DNA from: Escherichia coli
GTDB lineage: Bacteria > Pseudomonadota > Gammaproteobacteria > Enterobacterales > Enterobacteriaceae
Assembly: GCF_024502345.1 (NCBI RefSeq)
Contig: NZ_JALDNN010000001.1
Strand: one strand, 5' to 3'
Length of the DNA stretch: 64,000 nucleotides
Shown: piece after piece, positions 31,624 to 64,000 of the stretch
How the letters are laid out: every line of letters starts with the position of its first letter
How positions within the stretch are numbered: the stretch's first letter is position 1
The notes under the pieces: generated by a model
What the model saw: the letters and a program-made list of their open reading frames with translations, nothing else
What the model was told of the DNA's origin: nothing
Databases searched by the model: none
Translations under genes and position numbers: made by a program

Positions 31624-31627
31624 TGAT

Positions 31628-32100: not shown

Positions 32101-32111
32101 TTCACAGCAGT

Positions 32112-36237: not shown

Positions 36238-36243
36238 GCCATT

Positions 36244-48034: not shown

Positions 48035-48042
48035 GGAAAATC

Positions 48043-48306
48043 ATGTTCAACCGGAACACCAGCCTGCTTGCCGGCGCAATGACTGACGATCAGCTCAGGG
48101 ATGCGCTTGCGAAAGCTCAGCAGGCGTACATTGATTTAGCAACCGGGAGCCACGGTGTTTCGTTTTCCTATACGCAGGGAGACGGGACGCGATCAGTGTC
48201 CTATCAGCAAAGCACCCTGGCTGATCTGCTGGCCCTGATTCAACTTCTGCAGGCGCAACTGGGGATTATCTCTCGTCCCCGGAAACCAGCGAGGTTTAGA
48301 TTCTGA
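48043..48306 (+). CDS. head-tail joining protein (gpW-like)
   Basis: 87-aa ORF between terminase and portal, the same size and position as lambda W. Confidence 0.6.
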   Translation: MFNRNTSLLAGAMTDDQLRDALAKAQQAYIDLATGSHGVSFSYTQGDGTRSVSYQQSTLADLLALIQLLQAQLGIISRPRKPARFRF

Positions 48307-49943: not shown

Positions 49944-50806
49944 ATCTACCCCATCTGGCCCAGCGATTATTTAACACCCCGCTGGCGCTGCACCCGAGTA
50001 AAGCCGAAGTCATCATGGCATCCGTAATGGACCGATTTGGTATCAGTAAAATCGAATCTTCTCTTGCCATGGAGGATGACTGGTACGGATATGACGATAA
50101 CCGGGGACGTGAATCCCGTAGTGATCCGGGTTATGACAATGTGCTGGGTGTCGCCGTCATCCCGATATGCGGAACGCTGGTGCAAAAACTGGGCAGTCTG
50201 CGTCCGTACAGTGGAATGACAGGGTATGACGGCATTCGTCAGGCGTTTCTTACTGCGATGGAAGATCCCGACATTTCGGGCATTTGCCTGGATATCGACT
50301 CACCCGGCGGCGAGGTCGCTGGATGCTTCGATCTGGTTGATGTCATTTACGGCTCCCGGGGGAAAAAGCCTATCCATGCCATTCTGACGGAAAGCGCTTA
50401 TTCCGCTGCGTATGCCATTGCCAGTGCAGCGGACCGGATTTCTGTTCCGCGCACCGGCGGAGTGGGTTCTGTGGGTGTGATCACCATGCACCTTGACTGG
50501 ACGCAGCGGATTAAAGATGACGGTCTTAAAGTTACGATCATCACCTATGGATCCCGCAAGGCTGAAGGTTCGCCGCTGAGAGAGTTGTCAGATGAAGCTC
50601 TGGCCGCCATCCAGCAGGACATTAACACCATGGGCGAATTGTTTGTGAACACTGTTGCCAGAAACCGGGGGATTAGCGCAAAGGTTATAAAAAGTACCCA
50701 GGCCGCCTGTTTTATGGCTGCTGATGGCGTTGAAATTGGACTGGCTGATGAGGTGTGTCCTCCTGACGCTGCGTTCAAAAACTTACTTGAAAAAACAGGA
50801 GCCTGA
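49940..50806 (+). CDS. head maturation protease (S49/ClpP-like, lambda gpC-like)
   Basis: GICLDIDSPGGEVAG ... ILTESAYSAAYAIASAADRI resembles SppA-type serine peptidase motifs. Confidence 0.8.
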   Translation: MNLPHLAQRLFNTPLALHPSKAEVIMASVMDRFGISKIESSLAMEDDWYGYDDNRGRESRSDPGYDNVLGVAVIPICGTLVQKLGSLRPYSGMTGYDGIRQAFLTAMEDPDISGICLDIDSPGGEVAGCFDLVDVIYGSRGKKPIHAILTESAYSAAYAIASAADRISVPRTGGVGSVGVITMHLDWTQRIKDDGLKVTIITYGSRKAEGSPLRELSDEALAAIQQDINTMGELFVNTVARNRGISAKVIKSTQAACFMAADGVEIGLADEVCPPDAAFKNLLEKTGA

Positions 50807-50807
50807 A

Positions 50808-51398
50808 ATGGCAAAGAAAAAGACGTTTAGTTTTGCTCACCTCATTGGTCTTGGCCCTTCCGCTTCTGAGGAAGAAGAGGATAAAAAAGCCAAAAAAGCG
50901 AAAGCCCGTCGCGCGGAAGAGGACGAGCGCGAAGATGATGCCGATGATGATGAGCGCGACGACGACGCGGAAGAAGACGAACGCGACGATGATGCTGAAG
51001 ATGACGGCGATGATCCGGATGCGTCAGAAGATGATGATTCTGAAGACGACGGCGACGACGATCGCAAAGAGAGTAAGGCGGTAAAAAATGCACGCGCTGC
51101 TGAGCGTAAACGCTGCGCCCGTATTTTCGGCAGTAAGCATGCAGCTGCGAATCCTTCACTGGCCGCGTCACTGGCTTTCAATACCGGGATGAGTTCTGCG
51201 GCAGCAATTAATGTCCTAGCCTCTTCGGCTCCGGCCGCAGCCGCATCTCAGCCATCCCGTAAACGCTCTCTCGATCAGCGTATGCAGGAAAGCCACCAGG
51301 TCCGGCTTAATCCGGATAGCGGACAGAAAGAGACCGGAAAGTCTGCGCTGGTAAGTAAAATGACCGGCCTCTACAACTCCACAAGAGGAGAGAAATAA
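50808..51398 (+). CDS. acidic low-complexity head protein (possible scaffold)
   Basis: aggag RBS; Asp/Glu-rich repeats (EDEREDDADDDERDDDAEEDERDDDAEDDGDD) then an Ala/Ser-rich tail; sits between protease and decoration/capsid genes. Confidence 0.5.
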   Translation: MAKKKTFSFAHLIGLGPSASEEEEDKKAKKAKARRAEEDEREDDADDDERDDDAEEDERDDDAEDDGDDPDASEDDDSEDDGDDDRKESKAVKNARAAERKRCARIFGSKHAAANPSLAASLAFNTGMSSAAAINVLASSAPAAAASQPSRKRSLDQRMQESHQVRLNPDSGQKETGKSALVSKMTGLYNSTRGEK

Positions 51399-51802
51399 TG
51401 GATCAGTTTGGTCAGAATGCGTTTGCGCCTGGCATGAAGAGCGCGCTGTTTGTTCCGGATCAGCTTGTCGCTGGCACGCTCCAGCTGGTGACTGACACCG
51501 GGATCATTACGGGCGGTGCCTTTAAGCGTGGTACTGTCCTGGGCCTGGTGGCTGCCAGCGGGAAATACACGCAATGTGTGAAAACGGCTGAAGATGGCAG
51601 TCAGTTACCCGTTGCTATTCTGGTTGATGATGTTGATGCATCGTCTTCCGATCAGAACGGCGGCCTGTATCTGATGGGGGAATTCAACCAGCACCGAATT
51701 ATTTTTGATAACTCCTGGACGACCGCTGACCTGAAAAAAGCGCTCCGACCGCTGGCTATCTTCCTGAAAGACAGTGACCAGGCACCTGTAACCACCTCCT
51801 GA
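51398..51802 (+). CDS. head decoration protein (gpD-like)
   Basis: 134-aa ORF immediately upstream of the major capsid gene. Confidence 0.55.
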   Translation: MDQFGQNAFAPGMKSALFVPDQLVAGTLQLVTDTGIITGGAFKRGTVLGLVAASGKYTQCVKTAEDGSQLPVAILVDDVDASSSDQNGGLYLMGEFNQHRIIFDNSWTTADLKKALRPLAIFLKDSDQAPVTTS

Positions 51803-51899
51803 TTTCCCCCACGGCTCTCCTGACGAATGCTTTAACCGGCAGGGGCTGGCTCGTTTAAATTTTTTGCCAGCTGCGGCTGGCACTATCAAGAGACTGAAT

Positions 51900-52949
51900 A
51901 TGGAAAATATTTTTGATACCAGCGTGCTGGTGCAGGTTGTTCCTAACCTGAAAACCAGTCAGAACTGGCTGCTCGATCGCTTCTTCCCGAATGTCGTGAC
52001 TTACGAGACTGAAGAAGTGGCGATTGATGTTGATGTCGGCCTGCGTCGTATGGCGCCGTTCGTCTCCCCGCTGGTGGAAGGTAAGCTGGTCGAATCCCGT
52101 AAATACCAGACCAATACCTTCAAACCGGCATACATCAAAGATAAGCGCGCGCCGGACCTGCGCAAACCTATCCGCCGCCAGATTGGTGAGCGTATTGGCG
52201 GGGAATATACCGCTGCCGAGCGCGAAATGCTGAACCTTCAGTTTGAAATGACTGACCAGATTGACATGATCAACCGTCGTCTGGAATGGATGGCGGCGAG
52301 TGCGCTGGTGTCTGGGACCGTAACCGTCGCCGGGGAGGGCTATGAAACTAAGGTGGTGGATTTCGGGCGTGCTTCGGATCTGACCATCACTCTTAGCGGC
52401 TCGGATAAATGGCCACTGACCGTTGCAGCTGGCGCTACCAATACCCAGCCATCAGATGACATTGAAATCTGGCAGACTACTTTCCTGAAAGAGTCCGGCT
52501 CTGTCGCCACGGATCTGGTCTTTACGAATAAGTCATGGCGTGCATTCCGACTGGATACCACCATCAAGGATAACGCCATTACATTCCCGGCGCTGAGCCC
52601 GTTTGGTAACCAGATTAACGCCGGCCCACAGGTAATGAAGGGCGCAATTTATAAAGGGCGCTGGGGTAACTTTGACCTCTGGTTATATAACGACTGGTTT
52701 ATTGACCCGCTGGACAACGTCGAGAAGCCTATGATCCCCGATGGCGCTGTCATTATGAGTGGTGCCGATCTGATGGGTACCCGCGCCTTTGGCGTTATCC
52801 TGGACCCGGCTTTCAACTACGGTCCGCTGGCTTATGCGCCAAAATCCTGGGTGAAAGAAGATCCAGCCCAGCGTCTTATCCTGATGCAATCCTCCCCGCT
52901 GGTAATTCCGAGCCGGGTAAATGCATCCCTCTGCGCAACGGTGGTCTGA
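51900..52949 (+). CDS. major capsid protein (lambda gpE-like)
   Basis: About 350 aa; LDRFFPN and MQSSPLVIPS resemble lambda gpE LRLFFRE and IQSAPLMLLA. Confidence 0.8.
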   Translation: MENIFDTSVLVQVVPNLKTSQNWLLDRFFPNVVTYETEEVAIDVDVGLRRMAPFVSPLVEGKLVESRKYQTNTFKPAYIKDKRAPDLRKPIRRQIGERIGGEYTAAEREMLNLQFEMTDQIDMINRRLEWMAASALVSGTVTVAGEGYETKVVDFGRASDLTITLSGSDKWPLTVAAGATNTQPSDDIEIWQTTFLKESGSVATDLVFTNKSWRAFRLDTTIKDNAITFPALSPFGNQINAGPQVMKGAIYKGRWGNFDLWLYNDWFIDPLDNVEKPMIPDGAVIMSGADLMGTRAFGVILDPAFNYGPLAYAPKSWVKEDPAQRLILMQSSPLVIPSRVNASLCATVV

Positions 52950-52950
52950 T

Positions 52951-53331
52951 ATGGCAAAACAACCTAATACCGGGCTGGCTGATGATCTGAATGCAGAAGG
53001 ATCTGCCAAAGACGGCCTGAGCGTTGACAACCTGAATGCTGGCGATAACACCCAGGAAAAACAGCCTTTGAGCAAAACAGATGATGCCGAATTGTCTGTT
53101 GATGACGATGGTGGTGACGAAAAATCCGGAGACACTGAATCGCAGGAGTATGTGGTGTTGAAAGGGAATTGCATTCGTCATGACGGGGAGATGTACCGCG
53201 AAAATATGCGCATCCCTGTAACCGGCAAAGATGCTGAGCGTCTTCTGCAGTCCGGCGTTATTGCTGATGTTGATGTGCTTCGTAAGCGAGTTCTTGCTTC
53301 TCAGCCATCAGTTTCAGTTACGACAGGGTAA
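52951..53331 (+). CDS. hypothetical head protein (FI-like position)
   Basis: About 126-aa acidic ORF after the capsid gene. Confidence 0.4.
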   Translation: MAKQPNTGLADDLNAEGSAKDGLSVDNLNAGDNTQEKQPLSKTDDAELSVDDDGGDEKSGDTESQEYVVLKGNCIRHDGEMYRENMRIPVTGKDAERLLQSGVIADVDVLRKRVLASQPSVSVTTG

Positions 53332-53335
53332 TGAC

Positions 53336-53695
53336 ATGGGCGTGGACTGGGATTCTCATCTTCTGAGTCCGCTGCATGATGTCTTTGGCGATGAGCACGA
53401 GTACCGTCCACGTAACGGTACTCCTTTTACAATTAACGGGATTTTTGACCGTGGTTATGCGCAGGTTGCTGAAAACCTTGATGGCGATTCAGAAATTAAC
53501 ACCTCCAGCCCGATGTTGGGTGTGCGCGATGCTGAATTTCGCAAGCTGGGTAAATCGCAACCTGCTGTATCTGACCGGGTATTTATAAAGACGGTCGGTG
53601 GTCACATCATCAATCAGTTATTTGTTGTGTCAAACGTCGAACCCGACAGTCATGGCGGATCTCGTCTTGTCCTCAATGTGGTAAAACCGCGATGA
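53336..53695 (+). CDS. head-tail connector/head completion protein (FII-like position)
   Basis: About 119-aa ORF by position in the head-to-tail transition. Confidence 0.4.
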   Translation: MGVDWDSHLLSPLHDVFGDEHEYRPRNGTPFTINGIFDRGYAQVAENLDGDSEINTSSPMLGVRDAEFRKLGKSQPAVSDRVFIKTVGGHIINQLFVVSNVEPDSHGGSRLVLNVVKPR

Positions 53696-54237
53696 ATTCA
53701 GCAGCGATACGGCAAATGGTTGTCACTGCACTAACCGGGACAACCAGCGCGGGCGACCGCGTATTCTCTCCACGCGACTGGTCAACTTCACCAGATATGT
53801 ATCCTGTGTTGTTGGTTCAGACGCCTTTTGAACAGAAAAAATCACAGGGGCGTAATACCCCTGCTTTTACCACCCTCACCACTGTCAGGATCACTGGGCG
53901 CGTTCAGGAGTATGACGGCGATACAGTGGATGATGGAGCCATGCGGGCAGAGCTGGCGCTTGAAAGCCTTCGCGAGCAGGTGGAGCGCGCGGTGATCAAC
54001 AGCTACGAACTGACGCGGAATATTCAGAAATACGCGGAAGTTCGTTCAACCATCAATGTTGATTCAGAAGGAGAGGCCCATATGGGGCAGCTTCTTTTCG
54101 AGATCGATATAGAGCATTACCAGGGGCCGGAAGATTTTTATCCTGTCCAGTCGGTTCCCCTTGAGGGCATGGATATTGCGGTCGACATGCCAGACGGCAC
54201 AGTTAAACCGGGTATCAGCCTCAATCTTCAGGAGTAA
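53692..54237 (+). CDS. putative tail completion/neck protein
   Basis: 181-aa ORF overlapping the neighbouring stop codon; by position. Confidence 0.4.
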   Translation: MNSAAIRQMVVTALTGTTSAGDRVFSPRDWSTSPDMYPVLLVQTPFEQKKSQGRNTPAFTTLTTVRITGRVQEYDGDTVDDGAMRAELALESLREQVERAVINSYELTRNIQKYAEVRSTINVDSEGEAHMGQLLFEIDIEHYQGPEDFYPVQSVPLEGMDIAVDMPDGTVKPGISLNLQE

Positions 54238-54240
54238 TCC

Positions 54241-54438
54241 ATGTTTGTTAAGCCGAACAACGGGCTCAGCGTTCGCTGCCCCGTCAAGGGCATCCCATTG
54301 CCTAAAGAGGGTGCTGAAGTACCTGACAATATTTTCTGGCGTCGCCGTCTGAGCGATGGGGACGTGATCCTCTCTAAAAAGGATGAGGGCGCGCCAGAGA
54401 AACAATCATTACCTAAAAAAGCGGGAGAAAATGAATGA
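54241..54438 (+). CDS. hypothetical small protein (65 aa)
   Basis: ORF immediately upstream of, and overlapping, the sheath gene. Confidence 0.3.
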   Translation: MFVKPNNGLSVRCPVKGIPLPKEGAEVPDNIFWRRRLSDGDVILSKKDEGAPEKQSLPKKAGENE

Positions 54439-55937
54439 CCGTACCTTTCGCTCGTGTTCCCGATAACCTGCGGGTAGGGCTTTTCTTCGTTGAGTTTGAT
54501 AACTCAATGGCGAATAACGCCACTGCCACGCAGCGCACCCTGCTTATCGGTGGGATGCTCAGTACCGGCTCAACCCTCCCTGGTATTCCGCAGCGAGTTT
54601 CCTCTTCGGATACCGTCGGTGAGCTGACAGGAAAAGGGGGAATTCTGCAGGCCATGATGGCGGCGTATCAGAAAAATGATACCGCAGCCGAAGTCTGGAT
54701 CCTGCCGCTGGAGGAAGACTCCGATTCCATGGTGGCTGCAACCGGCACCATTAGAGTGAGCAGCGCACCGACGGAAACCGGAGTGATCTCCCTTTATATT
54801 GCTGGTGAGCGCATTCAGTTGACCGTTGTAGCAACAGATACGGTGGCAGCGATCGCCACCTCTCTGGCCGCGGCGATTAACGCAAAAACCACGCTACCTG
54901 TAACCGCCAGTGCGACTACGGATACCGTAACCCTGACCGCGAAGAATCTTGGTGCTACGGGTAATGGGATCGACATTCGCCTGAACTTCCTCGGCTTACC
55001 TGGAGGCGAGTCCACACCTGCAGGCCTGGAACTGACGATTACTGCTATGTCTAACGGAGTCGGGGCTCCGGATATTACCGGCGAGCTGGCAAACCTGCAG
55101 GATCGGACATTCGATTTCATCATCAACCCTTACGACGATACAACCTCGTTGAATGTGATGAAGGAGTTCCTGTCAGACACTGGCGGTCGCTGGGCATGGG
55201 ACAAGCAGCTTTATGGCCATTCCTTTGGTACAACCACCGGGACTTACGCCCAGCTCGGTACCAAAGGTGAGCTGCGCAATAACCAGCATGAGACCCTGCT
55301 GGGCGTAAATAAATCGCCGTCCCCTTCCTGGGCATGGTCTGCAGCTTACACCGGCGCAGCTGCGGTGAGTCTGCGTAATGACCCCGGCCGCCCGCTACAG
55401 TCGCTCGCTGTTCAGGGGGTGCTTGCGCCAGAACTGCAGGATCGCTTTGAGCTGACCGAGCGTAACAATCTGCTGTACAGCGGCATTTCGACATTTACGG
55501 TCGATGACGATGGCACGGTGCGCATTGAAAACCTGATCACCACCTACCAGAAAAACAGCTATGGCGATGCAGATGACAGTTATCTGGAAGTGGAGACGCT
55601 GTTCAGCCTGATGTTTGTGACCCGCTACCTGCGCACAGCGGTGACCAGCAAGTTTGGCCGTATGAAGCTTGCTGCGGATGGAACCCGATTTGCACCTGGC
55701 GCGGCGATCGTCACGCCAAACATTATCAAGGCCGATCAGATTGCCGAGTACCAGACTCTGGTATGGAACGGTTATGCGCAGGATGCGGAGGCATTCGCAA
55801 AAAATATCATCGTCGAGCAGAACGCCAAAAATCCGAACCGCGTCGATGTGCTGTGGCCGGGAACCCTCATGAACCAGTTGCGCATTTTCGCGCTGCTCAA
55901 TCAGTTCCGCACTCGGGCTGAATCAACAGGAGCTTAA
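54435..55937 (+). CDS. contractile tail sheath protein (Mu gpL-like)
   Basis: 500-aa protein followed by a 123-aa tube-size gene, a frameshifted chaperone and the tape measure: the canonical myovirus order. Confidence 0.7.
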   Translation: MTVPFARVPDNLRVGLFFVEFDNSMANNATATQRTLLIGGMLSTGSTLPGIPQRVSSSDTVGELTGKGGILQAMMAAYQKNDTAAEVWILPLEEDSDSMVAATGTIRVSSAPTETGVISLYIAGERIQLTVVATDTVAAIATSLAAAINAKTTLPVTASATTDTVTLTAKNLGATGNGIDIRLNFLGLPGGESTPAGLELTITAMSNGVGAPDITGELANLQDRTFDFIINPYDDTTSLNVMKEFLSDTGGRWAWDKQLYGHSFGTTTGTYAQLGTKGELRNNQHETLLGVNKSPSPSWAWSAAYTGAAAVSLRNDPGRPLQSLAVQGVLAPELQDRFELTERNNLLYSGISTFTVDDDGTVRIENLITTYQKNSYGDADDSYLEVETLFSLMFVTRYLRTAVTSKFGRMKLAADGTRFAPGAAIVTPNIIKADQIAEYQTLVWNGYAQDAEAFAKNIIVEQNAKNPNRVDVLWPGTLMNQLRIFALLNQFRTRAESTGA

Positions 55938-55940
55938 ACG

Positions 55941-56312
55941 ATGGCAGGTGATACTACTAACCGCCTGGCGGGAACCGCCTATGTCACTGTTAACGGTGTG
56001 ACGGTAATGGTGGAGGGCTCGTTTAAATACCAGGCTGCCACCGTAAACCGTACCACCCTGACAGGGATGGATGGTGTGCACGGATATAAGGAAAAACCTG
56101 TGGCGCCATACATTTCTGCCCGACTGCGTGACAGTGGCGGAACGAATGTGCAGGGCTTTAACCAGCAGACGAACGTCAACGTGATCGCCGAGCTGGCTAA
56201 CGGGAAAACTATCATTGGCCGTTCACTCTGGACGGTCAACGTCCAGGAAGTGGAAAGCGAAGATGCAGTATTTGATGTTCGCTGGGAAGGCCGCGACGTA
56301 ACGGAGAACTAA
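55941..56312 (+). CDS. tail tube protein
   Basis: 123-aa ORF directly after the sheath. Confidence 0.65.
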   Translation: MAGDTTNRLAGTAYVTVNGVTVMVEGSFKYQAATVNRTTLTGMDGVHGYKEKPVAPYISARLRDSGGTNVQGFNQQTNVNVIAELANGKTIIGRSLWTVNVQEVESEDAVFDVRWEGRDVTEN

Positions 56313-56313
56313 G

Positions 56314-56741
56314 ATGGCTGAGATTGAACGCGTTAAAACCATTCCATTAACCGTAGCGCTGGATGATGCTGCGGAGAAGACCACTTATACGCAGCTGGAG
56401 CTGAAAGCACCCACGCTAAGCCAGGCTGAGCAGTTTTACGAGAAACAGGCTGCGTCAACGTCGCTCGCGGCGATGCGCCTGCTTATTGCGCTGGTTTCCG
56501 GTACGCGTGAAAGCGTACTGCAGCCGATGGATTTTCTCGACTTCCGTAAGTGTGAGGAGTATCTGCTCAGTTTTTTGACCTGGAAGCCCTGACAACCTGG
56601 CAGGAAATGGCCGCTGACGTCACCTTCTATTTCCGCTGGTCTGAGGACAGGGCGTGGGGAATGACCCGCGCCCGGCTGAAATGGTGGGTGGCGCAGGCAT
56701 CCCGGATAAACAAGCTTAGGAAACCTGAAGACGATGAGTAA
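56314..56741 (+). CDS. tail assembly chaperone with programmed -1 frameshift (short form ends 56592; extended form to 56741)
   Basis: Slippery heptamer T-TTT-TTG at 56571-56577 in frame X-XXY-YYZ; the -1 frame stays open for 56 codons and ends 5 nt inside the tape-measure ORF. Confidence 0.65.
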
Positions 56742-58662
56742 TTCTTTTGATTTTGAGCTGGTGGCCAGCGACCAGGTTAGCGAGGCTATAGACCGCATTA
56801 ATGAGGCTGTCCGTGACCTGGAGCCGAAGCTAGATAAAACTAAAGAAGGGCTCAAGTTAGGCGGTCAGGAAACAGCCGACGGACTGAGCGGTTTTATTTC
56901 TCGCCTCGAGAATATGTCGAAGAGCGCGCGGGATAACGTGCAGTTTATTGGCGACATGGTTCCCCCACTGAAAATGGTGGGGGAGCTCACGGGGAAGATG
57001 GGGGCGCTGGGGTTAGCCGGTGCTGCCGGCTACGGACTGAAACAGGTCGCTTATGGATTTCGGGAGGCATCCCGTCAGGCCTATAATCTTGATGTCTCGG
57101 CAAAAAATGCGGGAATGCGCGTTGACGATTTTACCCGACTTTCCGGGGCAATGCGTATTCTTGGGGCAGACAGCGAGAGCGCTAATGCATCAATAGAAGG
57201 TATTTTCAAAGCATTCAATGAGGCTGCCAGTGGTAAAAACGAGGGGGTTATGGCAGCGATGGCGCAAATTGGTGCTCAAATCCAAAAAAACAGCGATGGT
57301 TCAGTAAATACCCTTAAAACACTGGAGTCTATCGCAAAAATTTTTCCAACCTTGCGACCTGAACAGCAGAAGTCCGCCGCTGATGCACTTGGGCTGACGC
57401 CCGAATTGCTGGCGCTAATGCGTGACGGTGAGCGCATGAAAAAGCTGCTGGCGAAATCGGATGAATTTGGTCTGACTGTGGATCCGGCACTAAATCAGCA
57501 ATTGAGTGAAGTGAACGGCACTATGAATGAGCTCAGCGCATCCTGGGATGGTCTGTGGCAACGTTCAAAAAACAAGGCACTTAAGACCATTCTTTCGGAT
57601 GGTTCAGTCAAAGACGGCCTTGAAGGTGTTACCGATCTGTTCACTAATGGTGATTTTACTGGGCTGTCTCATGCTCTCGGTTTTATCAACAGCAATGATG
57701 CTGAGAAACTACGGCGCATTCAGAACGATAAGGAACTTTATAACAGCTTACCCCGCAGTGAACGTGGGCAGGTTGACGCGGGTTTCATGACTGATGCTGT
57801 AAGAAAGCGGTACGATGCGAATTACCGCGCGACCGATTCTGCGATTCAATTGCAGAATGACTTATCCGCTATCAGCCAGCCACAATCCAACGTTGCACGC
57901 GGCAATGTTCCTTACGGGGAAACAAGGAATAACGCAATTGGCTTCAGAAATAATAATCCCGGTAATTTGAGGGCTGCAGCAAACGCAACGGGTAAAAATG
58001 GCGGATTTTCTACCTTTGCGAATGATGCCGACGGAAGAGCTGCAATGGCGAGACAGCTGATGTTGTATGGTGACAGGGGGAATAATACTCTGGATGGGAT
58101 TATTCATACCTATGCTCCGCAATCAGAGAATAATACTCGTGCATATATTGATTCCGTATCAAAAAGTACTGGGTTTGGAGCGCAGCAGCGTATTAATCTC
58201 CACGATCCTGATGTGTTAAAAACACTGATGGCAGCAATGATTAAACATGAAAGCGGAGCACAGCCGTATACCGAAAATGAACTGAGCGATTCTGTCCGGA
58301 CGGCCATCATTGACGATCGGTGGAAGGGTTTACGTAGCCCGGAAGTTCTGGCTCAACAGCGATATGATATTATCTCAGGTTCGCAAACTGGAAATCGTGA
58401 CTCCAGCACTCTTAGTAACCCGAGTGATGAAACTGATATTCTCTCAGGCTCGCAGAACAGAAATCGGGAATCCATCATTCTGAGTGATACGGGTAAGAAA
58501 AGTGATGAAAGTGTACTCGGCGACAATCTGGCTAAGTCTCTTAAAGAGGCAATGTCAGAACAACCACTTAAGCTCGAAATCACAATGGTTAATGATAAGG
58601 GTGAGCGAAAAACCTATAATGCGGAAAATAATGGCAGAATAACAACGGCCATGAATTACTGA
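56734..58662 (+). CDS. tail tape measure protein
   Basis: 642-aa ORF directly after the frameshifted chaperone pair; helical Ala/Leu-rich N-terminal part. Confidence 0.7.
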   Translation: MSNSFDFELVASDQVSEAIDRINEAVRDLEPKLDKTKEGLKLGGQETADGLSGFISRLENMSKSARDNVQFIGDMVPPLKMVGELTGKMGALGLAGAAGYGLKQVAYGFREASRQAYNLDVSAKNAGMRVDDFTRLSGAMRILGADSESANASIEGIFKAFNEAASGKNEGVMAAMAQIGAQIQKNSDGSVNTLKTLESIAKIFPTLRPEQQKSAADALGLTPELLALMRDGERMKKLLAKSDEFGLTVDPALNQQLSEVNGTMNELSASWDGLWQRSKNKALKTILSDGSVKDGLEGVTDLFTNGDFTGLSHALGFINSNDAEKLRRIQNDKELYNSLPRSERGQVDAGFMTDAVRKRYDANYRATDSAIQLQNDLSAISQPQSNVARGNVPYGETRNNAIGFRNNNPGNLRAAANATGKNGGFSTFANDADGRAAMARQLMLYGDRGNNTLDGIIHTYAPQSENNTRAYIDSVSKSTGFGAQQRINLHDPDVLKTLMAAMIKHESGAQPYTENELSDSVRTAIIDDRWKGLRSPEVLAQQRYDIISGSQTGNRDSSTLSNPSDETDILSGSQNRNRESIILSDTGKKSDESVLGDNLAKSLKEAMSEQPLKLEITMVNDKGERKTYNAENNGRITTAMNY

Positions 58663-58967
58663 TCACTGTCGTCATTTCGTTAAGGAAGAAGTTATGAATG
58701 AAAAAGTTTTTGGAGCAAAAGCCATTTAGACTCCAAAGGTTTTTGCGCTTGTTTACCTGGTAATTGGCATTTTCCTCGTTTTTTCTGTTGTCTCAATGAA
58801 TTTCACGGCGATTACGATATCGGTGGTAAGTGCATTGCTTTTACGTGTGCTTTATGAGTTCCTAATGAACTCATTCAAGGCGACTGAGCATCTTTACAGG
58901 ATCGCCGAATCTCTTGACCGTAATGGATCCAGCGATAAATAGATAAGTCATTTCAGTGCATATGTAA

Positions 58968-58990
58968 ACCGCCGACATGGCGGTTTTTTT
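58968..58990 (+). terminator. intrinsic terminator inside the tail module
   Basis: accgcc-gacat-ggcggt hairpin followed by ttttttt. Confidence 0.6.
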
Positions 58991-59002
58991 ATTTCCGGAG
59001 GC

Positions 59003-60409
59003 GTGATGCCGTCAATTATCCAGGACGCAATAACTTCTCTTTTGGGGGGAGATACCAGCGATGACTGGCAGGGGCAGTTACGGCCCAGCTCATTCAGAGG
59101 TGTGCCATTTGCAATTGTTGCTGAGGAAGGGAGCCACGGCCGACGCCAGGCGGTACATGAATATCCCTACCGTGATACAGCCTGGATAGAGGATATCGGG
59201 CGGGCAACACGGCGATTTGTTATTCGCGGTTTCTTGATCCAGAACAGCCAGGTTTACGGCGGCGGCGATGCTATCACGCAGCGCCAGTCACTGATTGAAG
59301 CCTGTGAACAAAAAGGTAGCGGTACGCTTGTCCATCCGACACTGGGCGAATTAACGGTTTCCATCCCTGAGAATGGTTTGCGTATTTCCGGTTCGATGGA
59401 GAACGGGCGAGTATTTGAATTTACCCTGATGGCAATTGAATCAGGGCTTAAAGTGTTTGCTGTCACGGGCAGTACCGTTGCAGGCGCCACGGTGAAAACC
59501 AACTATCTGAAACTGGTCAGCACTGCTGTGCTGAGCACGATTGCCAGAGTTAAGAGTGAAATCCGCGGTGTCACACAGGCTATAAACACCATCAGAGGCA
59601 CGGTCACGTTCTGGACTAACATGGTTGACAGCACCATCAGTCAGGTCACGAATCTCAGCAATGTCCTGAACTCCACGTTCGGGAATACCCGGTACGGACG
59701 TTACAGTAAAGGCTCTGTGGGCGGTAGTTCCTCTGCTGTTGCTGGCAAATCGTCAGTTGCTGATGTGGATGATGAGAGAGCACTGGCTGACAAGGTAACA
59801 GCCCAGTCGGTAATGGACCGGAAAAATGTTACCGACAGGTCGAGCCAGCTTAGCAGCTCCAACACACCTGATGAGTTTGTCCAGGGCGTCGCCGACGTGG
59901 TAAACGCAATTCTTAACAGCGCCGGCAGCGTTAATGACCGAATCACAGCGCTGGAAAAACTGGCTAATTCAATCAGCACGGAGTACCAGCAGTCCGACAG
60001 CAGCAAAGCGATTTCGGCGACCATGAACACGCTGATTGTTGTGCTATGTACTGGTGCCATGACCAGTGCCGCTGCGGACTCCAGACCAGCCAGTACAGAC
60101 GAGGCAGAAGAGTTAACTCAACGAGTTTCTGTGCAACTTGATACGGCGCTGGTTCTGGCTGGAGACCGCGCGGACGATGATATGTATAACGCGCTTCTCG
60201 CCGTCAGATCGGCATTCCTTTCTACGATGAGTGAGCGTGCTTCTGGTCTGAGCGAGCTTCTGCAGGTTACTACCGCTCAGCCGCTTCCGGCGCTGACGCT
60301 GGCAAACCGATTATACCAGGATGCCACCCGTGCAGATGAACTGGTACAGGAAGCGCGCGTACCGCATCCGGCGTTTATGCCGACAACCATGAAGGTACTG
60401 AGGCAATGA
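59003..60409 (+). CDS. tail/baseplate protein (Mu gpN DNA-circulation-like position)
   Basis: 468-aa ORF, first gene after the tape measure. Confidence 0.5.
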   Translation: MMPSIIQDAITSLLGGDTSDDWQGQLRPSSFRGVPFAIVAEEGSHGRRQAVHEYPYRDTAWIEDIGRATRRFVIRGFLIQNSQVYGGGDAITQRQSLIEACEQKGSGTLVHPTLGELTVSIPENGLRISGSMENGRVFEFTLMAIESGLKVFAVTGSTVAGATVKTNYLKLVSTAVLSTIARVKSEIRGVTQAINTIRGTVTFWTNMVDSTISQVTNLSNVLNSTFGNTRYGRYSKGSVGGSSSAVAGKSSVADVDDERALADKVTAQSVMDRKNVTDRSSQLSSSNTPDEFVQGVADVVNAILNSAGSVNDRITALEKLANSISTEYQQSDSSKAISATMNTLIVVLCTGAMTSAAADSRPASTDEAEELTQRVSVQLDTALVLAGDRADDDMYNALLAVRSAFLSTMSERASGLSELLQVTTAQPLPALTLANRLYQDATRADELVQEARVPHPAFMPTTMKVLRQ

Positions 60410-61491
60410 ATGCAGACAGCGATCTGGATGTTGTTTCTTTGACGGTCGACGGCAAAATCATCGAGGGGTGGGATTCTGTCCGGGTAACGCGGGGTATTGA
60501 GCGTTTTCCCTCTGATTTCGATCTTGGGCTAATGGATTACTTCCCTGGCAACGAAGATCGTCAACTCGTTGAAGAGGGAATGTCTTGTGAAGTTCGTATC
60601 GGAGATGATCTGACACTGACGGGATATGTTGATGACTGGGAACCCGCACTATCGCGCTCCCGCCATGAGGTCCGCGCCACGGGCAGGAGCAGATGTCAGG
60701 ACCTGGTGGATTGCTCAGCCGAGTGGCCTAACAACGTCATCAATGCCAGTAATGCGCTTGAAATTGCTTCTCGCCTGGCATCCTACTACGGCATCACCGT
60801 AACCACGGATGTTGATGAACTTGTGAAGGTACCCCAGTTCACTCTGAACTGGGGTGAGTCTCCGCAAGAAGTCATCGATCGGGTGGCCAGATGGTCTGCT
60901 CTGCTTTACTACGATCAGCCCGATGGAAACCTGTTACTGACCCGGGTGGGAACACGTCGTGCGGCAAGTGGGATAGCCGAAGGGGTAAATGTCGAGCAGG
61001 CATACTACCGCAAATCGATGGCTGACAGGTTTTCAGATTATGTCGGTGTATCAATGAGCGTTTCTCCAATTGCAGGGTATTCGCCTGATACGGCCTATGA
61101 CGCTGTGACTCTGGCAACGGCGAGAGATCCGGAGGCCGCCCGCATGCGGTACCGAAAACATATATCGATTGTGGAAAGTACCCTGATGGCTACTCAACAG
61201 GCACAAAGTGCGATCGACTGGGAAATGAACCGGCGGTACGGACGTTCAAAACAGCTCTCGGTAACCATCGATTCCTGGCGGGATAAAGACGGGAAACTGT
61301 GGGAACCAAACACATTGATCCCCGTTGATCTTCCCACCTTACGGTTGCCGAAGACTGAATTGCTACTGGCAGAAGTCACCTATATGCGCGATGACTACGG
61401 CACCCATGCACGCATGACGCTGATGCCGCCTGAAGCATTCTCCGTTCAGCCATATGCCTTCTACCAGAACCTGGCGGGATTCAATACATGA
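60406..61491 (+). CDS. baseplate hub/tail protein (Mu gpP-like position)
   Basis: 361-aa ORF overlapping neighbouring stop codons. Confidence 0.5.
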   Translation: MNADSDLDVVSLTVDGKIIEGWDSVRVTRGIERFPSDFDLGLMDYFPGNEDRQLVEEGMSCEVRIGDDLTLTGYVDDWEPALSRSRHEVRATGRSRCQDLVDCSAEWPNNVINASNALEIASRLASYYGITVTTDVDELVKVPQFTLNWGESPQEVIDRVARWSALLYYDQPDGNLLLTRVGTRRAASGIAEGVNVEQAYYRKSMADRFSDYVGVSMSVSPIAGYSPDTAYDAVTLATARDPEAARMRYRKHISIVESTLMATQQAQSAIDWEMNRRYGRSKQLSVTIDSWRDKDGKLWEPNTLIPVDLPTLRLPKTELLLAEVTYMRDDYGTHARMTLMPPEAFSVQPYAFYQNLAGFNT

Positions 61492-62072
61492 AGCAACTAT
61501 TTAAACATGCAGCGACCAGGATCGCCGGCATGCTGGGGATTGGCCGGATCACGGCTATGAAAGATGGTGGGGTGGTGCAGTCTATCCAGTACCAGACTCC
61601 GCTGGAGGTGGCCAGCGCTCCGCGGATGGCAGAATTTGGCTTTTCATCCGGCCTGCCGTCAGGGACTGACGTGGTTCTGGCTTTTATTGGCGGTGATCGT
61701 TCCAGCGCGGTGGTAATTGCGTCCAACCATCAGGGGTTCCGTCATACAGGCCTGAAAGCGGGCGAAACGGTCATGTATAACCAGTGGGGCCTTAATATTC
61801 TCCTGACGGAGAAGGGGATCTTCCTGGATGCAAAGGGCCAGAATGTTGAGGTCAATAACGCCACTAACGTGACCATCAATGCCAGCCAGGGGATCCTTGC
61901 AAATACCCCGATCCTGAGGTGCACGGGTGACATTGTTGATAACTGTGAAACCAATACCCGAACACTGAAAGAGCTGCGGGATGCACATAATGACCATGAT
62001 CATGTGGTTAAAAATGCCCAGAGTGGCAATGACAATATCCGCAGCCAAAAAACAGAGGATCAGGTGACATGA
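61488..62072 (+). CDS. baseplate spike/assembly protein (gpV-like)
   Basis: 194-aa ORF by size and position. Confidence 0.5.
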   Translation: MKQLFKHAATRIAGMLGIGRITAMKDGGVVQSIQYQTPLEVASAPRMAEFGFSSGLPSGTDVVLAFIGGDRSSAVVIASNHQGFRHTGLKAGETVMYNQWGLNILLTEKGIFLDAKGQNVEVNNATNVTINASQGILANTPILRCTGDIVDNCETNTRTLKELRDAHNDHDHVVKNAQSGNDNIRSQKTEDQVT

Positions 62073-62506
62073 GTGACATCGCTTCATTCTGGAATGTGGA
62101 TGAGATGTTTGCTGACTGGCAGAAAGGGCTGGGTGAACTCACCACGGGGAACGATTTACAGACTGCAATACTGGACAGCCTGTTTACCGACAGGCTGGCG
62201 CGCGCTGACGATGATTATGAGGATAGCGATCGCCGCGGCTGGTGGGGGGATTCCGGGGAGGAATCCCAACTGGGATCCCGGCTGTGGCTGCTACGGCGGA
62301 AAAAACTGACCCCGGATGTAGCAAAAAAAGCGGAGGAATACTCGAGTGAAGCGCTCAACTGGTTAAAGGTTGATGGCGTTGTCAGCGAGGTTATTCCTGT
62401 TGCAAGGATCGTCCTGCCTGACCGGCTCAATCTCATTATCCGCTATCAGGCACCGGGGAAGGACTGGCAGGAATTCAGGTTTTACTGGATATGGGAGCAA
62501 CGTTAA
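62069..62506 (+). CDS. baseplate wedge protein (GPW/gp25-like)
   Basis: 145-aa ORF upstream of the J-like gene. Confidence 0.5.
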   Translation: MSDIASFWNVDEMFADWQKGLGELTTGNDLQTAILDSLFTDRLARADDDYEDSDRRGWWGDSGEESQLGSRLWLLRRKKLTPDVAKKAEEYSSEALNWLKVDGVVSEVIPVARIVLPDRLNLIIRYQAPGKDWQEFRFYWIWEQR

Positions 62507-62507
62507 T

Positions 62508-63650
62508 ATGCCGTTTAAACGACCGACGCTGAGCGAACTCCGCGACGGAAACCGGAAATTTATGCAGGCGGAGCTTGAGGATGTTGGTGCGCTCCTGCGC
62601 TTCGCGAACCTGAAGGTACTGGCTGACATGGATGCGGGGATGGGGCATCTGCATTACGCCTACCTTGACTATATTGCCCTGCAGACAAACCCGTTTACCT
62701 CTACCGATGAGTATCTCGCCGGGTGGATGGCCCTTAAGCAGGTATTCAGAAAACCAGCTGCAGCGGCGAAGTCGCCTGCGGTACAGGCTAGTGGCAGTGT
62801 TGACTGTATTATCCCTGTTGGCTCGATCATTAACCGCGGGGACGGATACCAGTACCGGACGGATGCAGATCTTAAAATTCAGGCAGATGGATTTGGTATC
62901 GTCGCGGTGACGGCCATACTGCCGGATATTACCAGTGATGTAACGGGTGGAGGCGCGCGCGGTAACGCTGATGCCGGGACCATAATGACCCTGGACGCGA
63001 ATATTGCTGGCGTGGATCCACAGGTAACGTTACTGTCCGCTGCGACCGGCGGAGCCGATATTGAAACGGAAGAGGATTTTCGCAGTCGTGGCTTGCTGGC
63101 ATGGCAGAATCCGCCTCAGGGTGGAAGCGACGCCGATTATAAAAAATGGGCGCTTGAGGTTTCGGGCGTCACCCGCGCGTGGGTAAAGCGGCGTCTGAAC
63201 GGGGCCGGGACCGTTGGCGTGTATATCATGTGTGATCGGAATGACAATGGTGGGTTTCCGGTCGGTACCGACGGAATATCCCAACTTGAGGACTGGGGGG
63301 CTGTTAAAGCCACCGGAGACCAGCTCGCTGTCGCCGACCACATCTATCCGCAGCAGACAGACACTGCCATTGTTTTCGTATGTTCCCCGATCAAGAAAGT
63401 CATCAATATTGAAATCTCTGGGATCAAAAATGCCGACAGCACCACAGTTCAGGGGATAAAAGACGCGCTGACGGCGCTGTTTTTTGATGAAGCTAACCCT
63501 GATGGTTCCGGGAAAGTTTACCTCTCTGATATTAACGGGAGTATCGGCGGTGTTAGCGGCACGACGGGCTATATTCTTAACTCTCCGACGGCCAATATCA
63601 CCTTTGCTGTTGGCGAAATTCCGGTGCTTGGCGGGGTGAATTTTGTATGA
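62508..63650 (+). CDS. baseplate J-like protein
   Basis: About 380-aa ORF from the internal Met MPFKRPTLSELRDG; size and position match baseplate J. Confidence 0.55.
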   Translation: MPFKRPTLSELRDGNRKFMQAELEDVGALLRFANLKVLADMDAGMGHLHYAYLDYIALQTNPFTSTDEYLAGWMALKQVFRKPAAAAKSPAVQASGSVDCIIPVGSIINRGDGYQYRTDADLKIQADGFGIVAVTAILPDITSDVTGGGARGNADAGTIMTLDANIAGVDPQVTLLSAATGGADIETEEDFRSRGLLAWQNPPQGGSDADYKKWALEVSGVTRAWVKRRLNGAGTVGVYIMCDRNDNGGFPVGTDGISQLEDWGAVKATGDQLAVADHIYPQQTDTAIVFVCSPIKKVINIEISGIKNADSTTVQGIKDALTALFFDEANPDGSGKVYLSDINGSIGGVSGTTGYILNSPTANITFAVGEIPVLGGVNFV

Positions 63651-64000
63651 GCCTCTTTTCAAAAAATGATTATGCCGGTGCGCTTGGTGCGCTGCTACCG
63701 ACGGGCAGGGCGTGGCCCCGGTCGCAAAGAACGGTACAGGCTGCGGTATTACGGGCACTGGGCAGCGCGTTTCAGCGTTCTGACAACGATGCGCAAAGCC
63801 TGATTACTGGTGCTTTTCCCCCTACAGCGACGGTAATGTTGTCAGAATGGGAAAGCTCTCTGGGGTTACCAGATGATTGTGCGATTGGTGAATCCGGTGG
63901 CGTCAGCGATCGCCAGCGCGCCGTGGTGGCAAAGTTAATCAGCACCGGCGGCCTGAACCGCGATTATTACATCCGGGTGGCTGCAGCTCTTGGTTATACC
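63647..64000 (+). CDS. tail/baseplate protein (YmfQ / Mu gp48-like), 3' end outside window
   Basis: ATGA overlap with the preceding gene; open frame MSLFSKNDYAGALGALLPTGRAWPRSQ... runs to the window end. Confidence 0.5.
   Translation, partial: MSLFSKNDYAGALGALLPTGRAWPRSQRTVQAAVLRALGSAFQRSDNDAQSLITGAFPPTATVMLSEWESSLGLPDDCAIGESGGVSDRQRAVVAKLISTGGLNRDYYIRVAAALGYT

What the first reader, a model, noticed from the sequence alone, without database searches (positions are those of the whole stretch)
58663..59002. Unusual 340-bp gap with a terminator and a short hydrophobic ORF inside the tail operon
Tail genes here are otherwise tightly packed or overlapping, but between the tape measure and the next tail gene there is a spacer holding a possible 48-aa hydrophobic ORF (MNFTAITISVVSALLLRVLYEFLMN..., about 58796-58942) and a strong intrinsic terminator (58968-58990). 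That is a plausible small-moron insertion point.
Basis: seen in the sequence. Interest (0 to 1): 0.3.

Follow-up and report, generated by a model that had tools for sequence, protein, structure and literature searches.

The report
Amber-disrupted small membrane gene in tail operon
The odd gap in this E. coli prophage's tail genes holds an optional gene for an 82-residue membrane protein that a single stop-codon mutation has knocked out here, next to a terminator hairpin that belongs to the tail module itself, so it is a fairly ordinary decayed accessory gene of unknown function.

Summary
The gap (58663-59002), the 48-aa ORF (58796-58942) and the hairpin plus T-run (58966-58994) are all real. 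The ORF is only a remnant. It lies in frame with an ATG at 58694 that has a strong Shine-Dalgarno, and the two are separated by one TAG (58727-58729). Near-identical prophages in E. coli and Enterobacter carry TGG (Trp12) there and encode an intact 82-aa protein. It has two membrane helices and belongs to phrog_12129 and, marginally, to Pfam DUF4282. Homologs 51-70% identical occupy the same slot between the tape-measure gene and the Mu-N-like gene, with dN/dS 0.10-0.22.

The cassette is optional and low in GC (41% against 52%). Relatives have the slot empty or filled with other low-GC genes that carry N-terminal signal-peptide-like sequences, and one lineage has the homolog on the opposite strand. 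The hairpin is not the cassette's own: all 14 related tail modules examined have one just before the N-like gene, whatever the slot holds.

So this is a moron-like accessory slot, and the gene in this window is an amber pseudogene (the commonest allele). The prophage also appears to lack its early region. Function is unknown. Superinfection exclusion at the inner membrane is my best guess, by analogy only. There is no detectable homology to T4 Imm or HK97 gp15.

The parts
56734..58662 (+). Tape-measure-like gene (642 aa), the upstream neighbour. Its last ~60 codons (from ~58481) belong to the low-GC segment that varies together with the cassette.
   Evidence: ORF list. Position after sheath, tube and chaperone genes. 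Annotated 'tape measure protein' in phiNP and BZS1. Similarity to the cassette-free allele L004 stops at 58480 and resumes at 58967.
58592..58620 (+). Sigma-70-like match ATGATA-17-TATAAT inside the 3' end of the tape-measure gene. A possible promoter for the small gene, unproven.
   Evidence: 10 of 12 matches. The number of such matches in the region is not above the shuffles. No equivalent conserved match in L015, L018 or L023.
58671..58678 (+). Left copy of the 8-nt direct repeat GTCATTTC that flanks the 276-bp cassette.
   Evidence: Alignment with the empty alleles. By my estimate an 8-mer pair in 451 nt is about what chance gives, so this is only a hint.
58682..58688 (+). Shine-Dalgarno AAGGAAG. 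The AGGA core ends 7 nt before ATG 58694.
   Evidence: Sequence.
58694..58942 (+). 82-codon reading frame of the accessory gene (DUF4282-like / phrog_12129, two membrane helices), disrupted here by an in-frame amber codon. A pseudogene in this window.
   Evidence: Three-frame translation. Intact 82-aa orthologs P0001 and P0002 at 96% identity. Pfam and PHROG hits. dN/dS 0.10-0.22.
58727..58729 (+). TAG at codon 12. It is TGG (Trp) in intact orthologs and in nearly all distant homologs, and TAT (Tyr) in NCTC9040 and three IMG/VR contigs.
58796..58942 (+). It is the residual C-terminal part (second helix plus the conserved LRVLYEFLM.SFKATEHLYRIAE motif). No Shine-Dalgarno precedes it.
58947..58954 (+). 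Right copy of the direct repeat GTCATTTC.
58966..58994 (+). Intrinsic-terminator-like hairpin (8-9 bp GC-rich stem, 3-5 nt loop) plus T-run. A conserved native feature of the junction, not part of the cassette.
   Evidence: Present in 14 of 14 related loci regardless of cargo, with differing stems. Absent in Mu.
59006..60409 (+). Mu-gpN-like 'DNA circularization' tail gene, the downstream neighbour. Its SD GGAGG lies at 58997-59001, immediately after the T-run.
   Evidence: Pfam DNA_circ_N, E=2.8e-30. PGAP start in ECONIH4.

Best explanation
The spacer is a ~276-bp optional, low-GC accessory cassette. It lies between the stop codon of the tape-measure gene and a conserved terminator hairpin that directly precedes the Mu-N-like tail gene.

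Shown:
- The cassette carries one gene of 82 codons (58694-58942) with a strong ribosome-binding site.
- Intact orthologs encode a small protein with two predicted membrane helices, a conserved N-terminal motif (FG.K.IWTPK) and a highly conserved motif after the second helix (LRVLYEFLM.SFKATEHLYRIAE).
- In this window a G->A change (TGG->TAG, 58728) ends the frame after 11 codons.

Inferred:
- Translation from ATG 58694 stops at the amber codon. The leftover ORF has no Shine-Dalgarno and starts 67 nt further on, so it is probably not made. The gene is therefore most likely a pseudogene in this copy.
- From the charge distribution, the topology of the intact protein is probably N-in/C-in.
- In intact phages the gene would be co-transcribed with the late tail genes, because no terminator separates it from the tape-measure gene. 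A promoter inside the 3' end of that gene might also express it in lysogens. Transcription by unmodified polymerase would end at the native hairpin. Closely related prophages encode Q-type antiterminators that would carry late transcription through the hairpin.

Speculative (about 0.3): the intact protein acts at the inner membrane on phage DNA entry, as a superinfection-exclusion factor, in the way the unrelated proteins HK97 gp15 and T4 Imm do.
For: - Frame continuity, SD and the single TAG.
- Intact 82-aa orthologs with TGG in E. coli (P0002, L029) and Enterobacter (P0001, L010). They differ from the window at only 3-6 positions in 58481-58995.
- Trp12 is conserved in homologs 51-70% identical, and the N-terminal motif is conserved.
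- The same slot is used in L010-L031.
- Purifying selection: synonymous sites saturated, dN 0.11-0.52 among the enterobacterial homologs (up to 0.85 against GF-2), dN/dS 0.10-0.22 where computable.
- Two hydrophobic helices. AF2 helical hairpin, pLDDT 79.
- Family: phrog_12129 at E~1e-11. DUF4282 at 23.8 bits for the window copy, 27.1 for P0012 and 31.9 for GF-2 ORF19, against a cut-off of 27.
- Optional and low GC.
- Alternative cargo in the slot.
- Opposite-strand copy in L033, which must have its own promoter.
- Hairpin conserved in 14 loci with stems CCGCC, CCCGC, CCCAC and CCTGC.
- Q-type antiterminators in the related prophages ECONIH4 and OW1E2.
- Recurrent placement of distant family members right after tape-measure genes of other tail types (GF-2; TMP_3 with Dit-like neighbours).
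- HK97 gp15 has the same layout of small ORF, then terminator, then next tail gene, and T4 Imm binds the tape-measure protein.
Against: - The amber allele is the commonest close allele: 20 of 21 complete E. coli genomes and 21 of 25 IMG/VR copies. That is unexpected for a purely dead gene, unless it hitch-hikes in a successful prophage lineage.
- No promoter is demonstrated. The sigma-70 matches are at chance level and are not conserved.
- The proposed function has no direct support. There is no relevant PADLOC hit (one marginal Csx18 match, E=0.003, for one homolog), no NCBIfam or PDB-sequence match and no significant fold match. There is no detectable homology to Imm or gp15.
- One family member lies in a non-phage chromosomal context.
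- In this window the prophage seems to lack Q and the whole early region, so the expression logic applies to intact relatives, not necessarily to this copy.
Confidence: 0.8

Rival explanations
1. One reading: an intact 48-aa hydrophobic protein gene (58796-58942) with its own terminator, forming a self-contained small moron.
For: The ORF and the hairpin exist at the stated coordinates. Gene callers have called the 48-aa product in 16 contigs (P0011). It retains the most conserved motif of the family.
Against: No Shine-Dalgarno precedes ATG 58796, while a strong one precedes the in-frame ATG 58694. All intact homologs are 79-83 aa and have a conserved N-terminus and first helix. The hairpin is also present in relatives without any cargo.
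Confidence: 0.05
2. The amber allele is not dead. Low-level TAG read-through, or re-initiation at 58796, gives a small dose of full-length or single-helix protein, and this attenuated allele is maintained because the full dose is costly.
For: TAG is the majority allele among close copies. Alleles that reopen a long frame have arisen on the TAG background. One is TAT (Tyr12), found in NCTC9040 and 3 viral contigs. The other is a T insertion after 58739 in an E. cloacae lineage, which gives an 81-aa ORF from the neighbouring ATG. This suggests the product still matters.
Against: No mechanism for efficient read-through is evident. 67 nt without an SD is unfavourable for re-initiation. Changes downstream in TAG copies (F27Y, F27C, a stop loss) look like relaxed constraint. 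PGAP annotates nothing here. TAG prevalence is explained as easily by clonal spread of the prophage.
Confidence: 0.12
3. The intact protein serves the phage's own lytic cycle, for example helping the tape-measure protein or tail tip at the membrane during assembly or injection, or modulating lysis. On this reading it is not a host-protecting exclusion factor.
For: In most loci it is co-oriented with, and not insulated from, the late tail operon. Distant family members sit directly after tape-measure genes, or beside baseplate spike genes, in several unrelated tail types.
Against: It is dispensable. Close relatives, including the cultured phages phiNP and BZS1, lack it. In L033 it is on the opposite strand to the tail genes. 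The other cargo in the same slot consists of unrelated proteins with signal-peptide-like N-termini. A homolog exists outside any phage context.
Confidence: 0.2
4. The spacer matters only as non-coding regulatory DNA. The terminator attenuates transcription so that baseplate genes are made at a lower level than sheath, tube and tape-measure genes, and the rest is junk.
For: The hairpin is the one element conserved in all 14 related modules. In this window the coding part is broken. Annotated putative terminators inside the HK97 tail operon show the pattern is common in lambdoid late operons.
Against: This does not explain the 276 extra bases, which encode a protein under purifying selection in relatives. 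Rfam finds no RNA family in the gap above threshold.
Confidence: 0.1

Closest known systems
HK97 gp15 moron (superinfection exclusion; Cumby et al. 2012, summarised in PMC3594210)
   Same: A small inner-membrane protein gene placed inside a lambdoid tail operon next to the tape-measure gene, followed by a terminator that directly abuts the next tail gene. It is optional, and it has non-phage chromosomal relatives (YebO for gp15; L034/L035 here).
   Different: No sequence relationship (hhalign probability 0.75%). gp15 is 62 aa and lies before the tape-measure gene; this gene is 82 aa and lies after it. Here the terminator is native to the junction. The function here is untested, and this copy is broken.
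T4 Imm (83 aa immunity-to-superinfection protein)
   Same: Almost the same size. Both are small and very hydrophobic membrane proteins. Imm is reported to bind the tape-measure protein to block genome entry (bioRxiv 10.64898/2026.03.06.709160), which would give the linkage of this gene to the tape-measure gene a rationale.
   Different: No detectable homology (hhalign probability 0.5%; no Pfam Imm hit). T4 imm is an early gene far from the tail genes.
Pfam DUF4282 / PHROG phrog_12129 (uncharacterised small membrane proteins)
   Same: This is the family the gene belongs to by sequence. All tested homologs hit phrog_12129 at E from 1e-11 to 1e-37. GF-2 ORF19 and P0012 pass the DUF4282 gathering score. 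Length and the two-helix layout match.
   Different: The window copy (read through the stop) and most enterobacterial members score just below the DUF4282 cut-off (19-24 bits against 27). No function is attached to either family, and no paper in the searched library mentions DUF4282.
Intra-operon intrinsic terminators of Q-antiterminated lambdoid late operons
   Same: A GC hairpin plus T-run between two late genes, with no room for a downstream promoter. Related prophages encode Q-type antiterminators. HK97 has annotated putative terminators inside its tail operon.
   Different: Termination and read-through were not measured. The copy in this window apparently has no Q gene left.

Membership tests
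Moron (as described in PMC3594210, citing Juhala et al. 2000) | Extra DNA that is absent from otherwise closely related phages | tested here: met
   L004 and L005 (E. coli), phiNP, BZS1, SfV and ST64B have 33-68 bp between the tape-measure gene and the N-like gene. 11 of 32 matching E. coli genomes lack the cassette.
Moron (as described in PMC3594210, citing Juhala et al. 2000) | Base composition different from the neighbouring genes | tested here: met
   Gap GC 40.6% against 52.4% for the tail region. The low-GC tract spans ~58350-58966.
Moron (as described in PMC3594210, citing Juhala et al. 2000) | Own promoter that allows expression from the repressed prophage | tested here: inconclusive
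   One 10/12 sigma-70 match at 58592-58620, but match counts are not above shuffles and it is not conserved in L015, L018 or L023. The opposite-strand copy in L033 implies an independent promoter in that lineage only.
Moron (as described in PMC3594210, citing Juhala et al. 2000) | Own terminator | tested here: not met
   A terminator follows the ORF, but the same hairpin position is occupied in all cargo-free relatives, so it belongs to the tail module.
Pfam DUF4282 / phrog_12129 | Profile score above the family threshold | tested here: inconclusive
   Window copy 23.8 bits against the gathering score of 27. P0012 scores 27.1 and GF-2 ORF19 31.9, both passing. Orthologs P0001, P0012, P0014 and P0009 hit phrog_12129 at about 1e-11 to 1e-13, and GF-2 ORF19 at 2e-37.
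Pfam DUF4282 / phrog_12129 | Protein of ~80 aa with two hydrophobic helices | tested here: met
   Hydropathy. AF2 helices 3-34 and 37-76. The match covers profile positions 28-85 of 86.
T4 Imm family | Sequence or profile homology to Imm | tested here: not met
   hhalign probability 0.5%. No Imm family among the Pfam hits at E<=1.
HK97 gp15 / YebO family | Sequence or profile homology to gp15 | tested here: not met
   hhalign probability 0.75%.
Superinfection-exclusion proteins (functional class) | Expression in the lysogen blocks infection or DNA entry by other phages | not testable with these tools
   Needs plating and DNA-entry assays. Only the analogy and the genomic context are available.
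Rho-independent terminator | GC-rich stem-loop directly followed by a U-tract, with the structure conserved | tested here: met
   -12.2 kcal/mol, z = -2.8. 14 of 14 related loci keep a stem of 7 or more pairs plus a T-run (the run is short or interrupted in a few), with four different stem cores.
Rho-independent terminator | Actual transcript 3' ends at the U-tract | not testable with these tools
   Needs Term-seq or in vitro transcription.
Pseudogene by nonsense mutation | In-frame stop at a position where intact orthologs have a sense codon | tested here: met
   TAG against TGG at codon 12. The copies are otherwise 96% identical at protein level, and Trp is conserved in distant homologs.

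The most novel reading that the evidence does not exclude
phrog_12129 / the phage branch of DUF4282 may be an unrecognised family of small inner-membrane proteins linked to the tape-measure gene. They would control phage genome entry, acting as self-type superinfection exclusion through the incoming tape-measure protein or tail tip. Their genes are recurrently placed just after the tape-measure gene in several unrelated tail architectures: Mu-like myovirus tails, GF-2-type tails, and tails with a TMP_3-type tape measure and a Dit-like neighbour. The junction before the N-like gene in SfV/phiNP-like prophages, closed by a conserved terminator, would then be a dedicated docking site for cargo that acts on the cell envelope.
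Probability: 0.25. Interest if true: 0.55.

Novelty: new member of a known kind. Interest (0 to 1): 0.3.

Why it matters
For this window it matters little. It is a decayed copy of an optional small gene in a prophage that appears to be defective.

More generally, three points are useful.
- Annotation pipelines miss both the intact 82-aa gene in some genomes and the pseudogene in the strains with the TAG allele.
- The junction between the tape-measure gene and the N-like gene in the lambdoid-head, Mu-like-tail prophages of Enterobacteriaceae is a recurrent cargo slot. It holds membrane or signal-peptide-bearing proteins of unknown function, always upstream of one conserved terminator. Such a slot is a place to look for new prophage-encoded exclusion or fitness factors.
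- The uncharacterised DUF4282-like phage family shows a repeated physical link to tape-measure genes. That gives a concrete, testable hypothesis for its function.

Tried and rejected
- Known RNA: an Rfam scan of 58300-59300 at E<=1 gave only sub-threshold hits, the best at 29 bits against a gathering score of 51 on the terminator itself.
- Known defence proteins: PADLOC gave nothing relevant, for this family or for the alternative cargo proteins.
- Named families and structures: NCBIfam gave only noise. PDB by sequence gave nothing. Foldseek of the AF2 model against PDB gave no hit with E<1.
- Homology to T4 Imm and HK97 gp15: rejected.
- A conserved promoter for the small gene: not found with the simple scan in L015, L018, L023 or L024.
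- A recent sweep of the cassette: I first thought it was far more conserved than its flanks. Position-wise comparison showed that the divergence between copies is confined to mosaic patches inside the tape-measure gene (56800-57800 and 58000-58610), so there is no such signal.
- The 8-nt flanking direct repeat: by my estimate no better than chance on its own.
- ECONIH4 as a map for the whole window: I assumed the window matched that prophage throughout and mapped its Q gene onto window coordinates. This was wrong. The window matches it only from 45176 onward.
- Literature: no paper mentions DUF4282, and the phiNP prophage paper contains none of the searched terms 'moron', 'tape measure', 'SfV' or 'antitermin'.

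Full report
**1. What is at the coordinates**

The region lies in the contractile-tail module of an E. coli prophage. The gene order is sheath (54435-55937), tube (55941-56312), tail assembly chaperone (56314-56592), a 642-aa tape-measure-like gene (56734-58662), then a gene with the Pfam DNA_circ_N domain (Mu gpN-like, 59006-60409), followed by Mu P/gp45/gp46/gp47-like baseplate genes.

Junctions between the tail genes measure -4 to +3 bp. There are two exceptions: 141 bp before the tape-measure gene, which contains a 44-codon ORF, and 343 bp after it.

The gap has 40.6% GC against 52% for the surrounding tail genes.

**2. The 48-aa ORF is a fragment**

Translating the gap in its three forward frames shows that the ORF continues upstream in the same frame to ATG 58694. 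That ATG is preceded by AAGGAAG (58682-58688). The only interruption is one TAG at 58727-58729. ATG 58796 has no Shine-Dalgarno.

A protein search with the read-through sequence found intact 82-aa proteins at 96% identity in Enterobacter roggenkampii (P0001) and E. coli (P0002). It also found homologs of 79-83 aa at 51-70% identity. All of them except P0012, which has Leu, have Trp at codon 12. At the DNA level the window differs from the E. roggenkampii copy at only three positions in 58481-58995, one of which is 58728 (TGG against TAG).

The N-terminal motif FG.K.IWTPK and the first helix, both lost from the 48-aa fragment, are conserved across the family. Among the divergent homologs the synonymous sites are saturated. 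dN is 0.11-0.52 among the enterobacterial homologs, and dN/dS is 0.10-0.22 where it can be computed. This is a genuine protein-coding gene, and the window carries a nonsense allele of it.

**3. What the protein is**

- Hydropathy gives two hydrophobic helices (about residues 16-34 and 38-58). Positive charges lie at both termini, and the C-terminal segment is amphipathic.
- AlphaFold2 with the family alignment gives a helical hairpin, H3-34 and H37-76, with pLDDT 79.
- The family is phrog_12129 (function unknown; about E=1e-11 to 1e-13 for the enterobacterial orthologs and 2e-37 for GF-2 ORF19). It is also, marginally, Pfam DUF4282: 23.8 bits for the window copy, 27.1 for P0012 and 31.9 for Edwardsiella phage GF-2 ORF19, against a cut-off of 27.
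- A profile search of 1.8 billion representative proteins found only 68 clusters at E<=0.001, nearly all about 80 aa long.
- PADLOC, NCBIfam, PDB by sequence and Foldseek against PDB all gave nothing useful. No paper in the searched library mentions DUF4282.

**4. The slot**

Every enterobacterial homolog whose context I retrieved lies between the tape-measure gene and the N-like gene (L010-L031). Other prophages and phages with this tail type have the slot in one of three other states:

- Empty, with gaps of 33-68 bp: E. coli OW1E2 and AW1.7, Citrobacter phage phiNP, Serratia phage BZS1, SfV and ST64B.
- Filled with unrelated cargo: a 244-aa protein (L040) or a 165-aa protein (L041).
- Filled with a 188- or 192-aa protein in addition to the small gene (L024, L025).

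All four of these cargo genes have 36-44% GC, encode signal-peptide-like N-termini, and have no Pfam or PADLOC assignment.

In L033 the homolog occupies the same slot but on the strand opposite to the tail genes, so there it must be an independent transcription unit. One family member (P0023) lies in a non-phage chromosomal neighbourhood.

In IMG/VR contigs more distant members recur in tail modules. In 13 of the 30 loci I analysed the gene lies 28-167 bp downstream of a 568-865-aa ORF on the same strand (overlapping its end by a few bases in the GF-2-type contig). The one such neighbour I checked is a Pfam TMP_3 tape-measure protein, with a Dit-like protein downstream. Another group lies next to a baseplate spike gene. 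In phage GF-2 the homolog follows the tape-measure/transglycosylase gene directly and is itself followed by a terminator.

Against the empty allele L004, the variable segment spans window 58481-58966. It therefore includes the last ~60 codons of the tape-measure gene. An 8-nt direct repeat, GTCATTTC, brackets 276 bp. That is suggestive but, by my estimate, no better than chance.

**5. The terminator is native, not the cassette's own**

In all 14 related loci examined, a GC-rich hairpin followed by a T-rich run (short or interrupted in a few) lies 4-20 nt before the start of the N-like gene, whether the slot is empty or full. The stem cores differ between loci (CCGCC/GGCGG, CCCGC/GCGGG, CCCAC/GTGGG, CCTGC/GCAGG), which points to selection on the structure. 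Phage Mu itself has a 4-nt junction and no hairpin.

There is no room for a promoter between the hairpin and the N-like gene, so the baseplate genes must be transcribed by read-through. Two related prophages that carry this tail module (ECONIH4, OW1E2) are lambdoid and encode Q-type antitermination proteins upstream of their lysis genes. This offers the standard explanation, which I infer from established knowledge of lambdoid late transcription: Q-modified polymerase ignores the terminator, and unmodified polymerase stops there. HK97 has the same arrangement, with annotated putative terminators inside its tail operon. One of them lies right after the gp15 moron and 12 nt before the tape-measure gene.

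**6. Allele survey**

Among complete E. coli genomes, 21 carry the cassette at 99.7% identity or better.
- Thirteen are identical to the window, so they carry TAG.
- Seven have one mismatch. In the one I read (L003) this is F27Y, not a change at codon 12.
- NCTC9040 has TAT (Tyr12), and PGAP annotates an 82-aa protein there.

In IMG/VR, 21 close copies have TAG, 3 have TAT and 1 has TGG.

An E. cloacae lineage (L030, L031) keeps the TAG but has one extra T in the T5 run just downstream. This lets an ORF that starts at the neighbouring out-of-frame ATG rejoin the main frame, giving an 81-aa protein with both helices but a new N-terminus.

The most parsimonious order is TGG -> TAG -> TAT, which would make TAT and the T insertion two separate re-openings of the frame. 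That hints the product is worth having, but the direction is not proven. Copies with TAG also show F27Y, F27C and one stop loss, which is compatible with relaxed constraint.

**7. State of this prophage**

The window matches ECONIH4 only from 45176 to 64000. Window 24000-38219 is core chromosome, from ompC through the nap genes. napB (37765-38229) is followed within about 120 bp by a fragment that matches only the C-terminal part of a phage DNA methylase. After it come a holin (38817), a lysozyme (39067) and a DUF2514 protein (39594).

Relatives have the integrase, repressor, replication and Q genes upstream of the lysis cassette. No integrase, repressor or Q gene is found where relatives have them, so this copy looks like a defective remnant. 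I did not follow this up fully.

**8. Mechanism and function**

Shown:
- The gene structure and the nonsense mutation.
- That the cassette is optional.
- The predicted two-helix protein.
- The conserved terminator.

Inferred:
- The gene is non-functional in this window.
- It is co-transcribed with the late genes in intact relatives.
- Antitermination carries late transcription past the hairpin.

Speculative (about 0.3): the intact protein blocks or modulates phage DNA entry at the inner membrane. The grounds for this are as follows.
- The predicted location and small size of the protein.
- Its repeated linkage to tape-measure genes across different tail types.
- The other cargo in the same slot, which looks like exported or envelope proteins.
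- Its dispensability, and the existence of chromosomal relatives.
- Two precedents that are unrelated in sequence. HK97 gp15 is a small inner-membrane exclusion protein encoded next to the tape-measure gene, and its effect depends on the tail region of the incoming phage (PMC3594210). T4 Imm is an 83-aa protein reported to bind the tape-measure protein (bioRxiv 10.64898/2026.03.06.709160).

Homology to both was tested and not found. The claim is 'may work like', not 'is a member of'.

**9. Verdict**

This is a moron-type slot, but the ORF is a truncated remnant of an 82-codon gene and the terminator belongs to the tail module.

Novelty is modest: a new, broken member of a known kind (an accessory small membrane protein gene in a tail operon) from an uncharacterised family.

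Interest is about 0.3. The family-level link to tape-measure genes and the conserved cargo slot are the parts worth following.

Noticed in passing
window 37765-39100: Chromosomal napB (37765-38229) is followed within about 120 bp by a fragment matching only the C-terminal part of a phage N6/N4 DNA methylase, then by holin, lysozyme and DUF2514 genes. Related prophages have integrase, repressor and a Q antiterminator upstream of their lysis genes. This prophage therefore seems to have lost its whole early region, and possibly the chromosomal genes after napB as well. No complete E. coli genome in the collection has this junction.
   Followed up: partly
window 56592-56741: A 44-codon ORF (56607-56741) fills the 141-bp 'gap' between the tail assembly chaperone gene and the tape-measure gene and overlaps the start of the latter. 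It looks like the frameshift extension typical of tail chaperone gene pairs. Some gene callers list it as a separate 44-aa gene (L010, L011, L031).
   Followed up: no
window 56800-57800 and 58000-58610: The tape-measure gene is mosaic. Prophages that are otherwise nearly identical to the window differ from it almost only in these two patches, with up to ~70 differences per 200 bp.
   Followed up: partly
L040 1729-2463; L041 1988-2485; L024 3375-3941; L025 3366-3944: Other prophages carry four unrelated genes in the same slot (244, 165, 188 and 192 aa). All have low GC (36-44%) and signal-peptide-like N-termini, and none has a Pfam or PADLOC hit. Each is followed, directly or after the small gene, by the conserved hairpin.
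   Followed up: partly
L033 5001-5246: An 81-aa homolog (P0018) sits in the same slot between the tape-measure gene and the N-like gene but on the opposite strand to the tail genes. This locus has no terminator hairpin before the N-like gene.
   Followed up: partly
L030 and L031 4001-4246 (equivalent to window 58698-58942): An Enterobacter cloacae lineage keeps the TAG but has one extra T in the T5 run just downstream (after window position 58739). This gives an 81-aa ORF that starts at the adjacent out-of-frame ATG and rejoins the main frame, which looks like a second-site bypass of the amber codon. It was seen in at least 19 contigs.
   Followed up: partly
L007 1532-1780 (NCTC9040); L045-L047: These copies have TAT (Tyr) in place of the TAG on an otherwise identical cassette. 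This is most simply read as a reversion of the amber codon to a sense codon.
   Followed up: partly
L070, L071, L107, L108, L110-L118 (IMG/VR contigs), ~4001-4250: Distant DUF4282-like genes lie 28-167 bp downstream of long ORFs. The one checked (L070) is a Pfam TMP_3 tape-measure protein, and a Dit-like tail gene lies downstream. This is the same topological position in a different tail type.
   Followed up: partly
window 58702-58744: A 14-nt imperfect inverted repeat (AAAAGTTTTTGGAG / CTCCAAAGGTTTTT) brackets the amber codon. It is probably just a by-product of the repeated Lys-Val-Phe codons.
   Followed up: no
L037 12277-14213 and 44374-44613 (ECONIH4 prophage, outside the part shared with the window): The related ECONIH4 prophage carries further annotated pseudogenes: a frameshifted cytosine methyltransferase and a gene with an internal stop. 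Decay of accessory genes therefore seems common in this prophage group.
   Followed up: no
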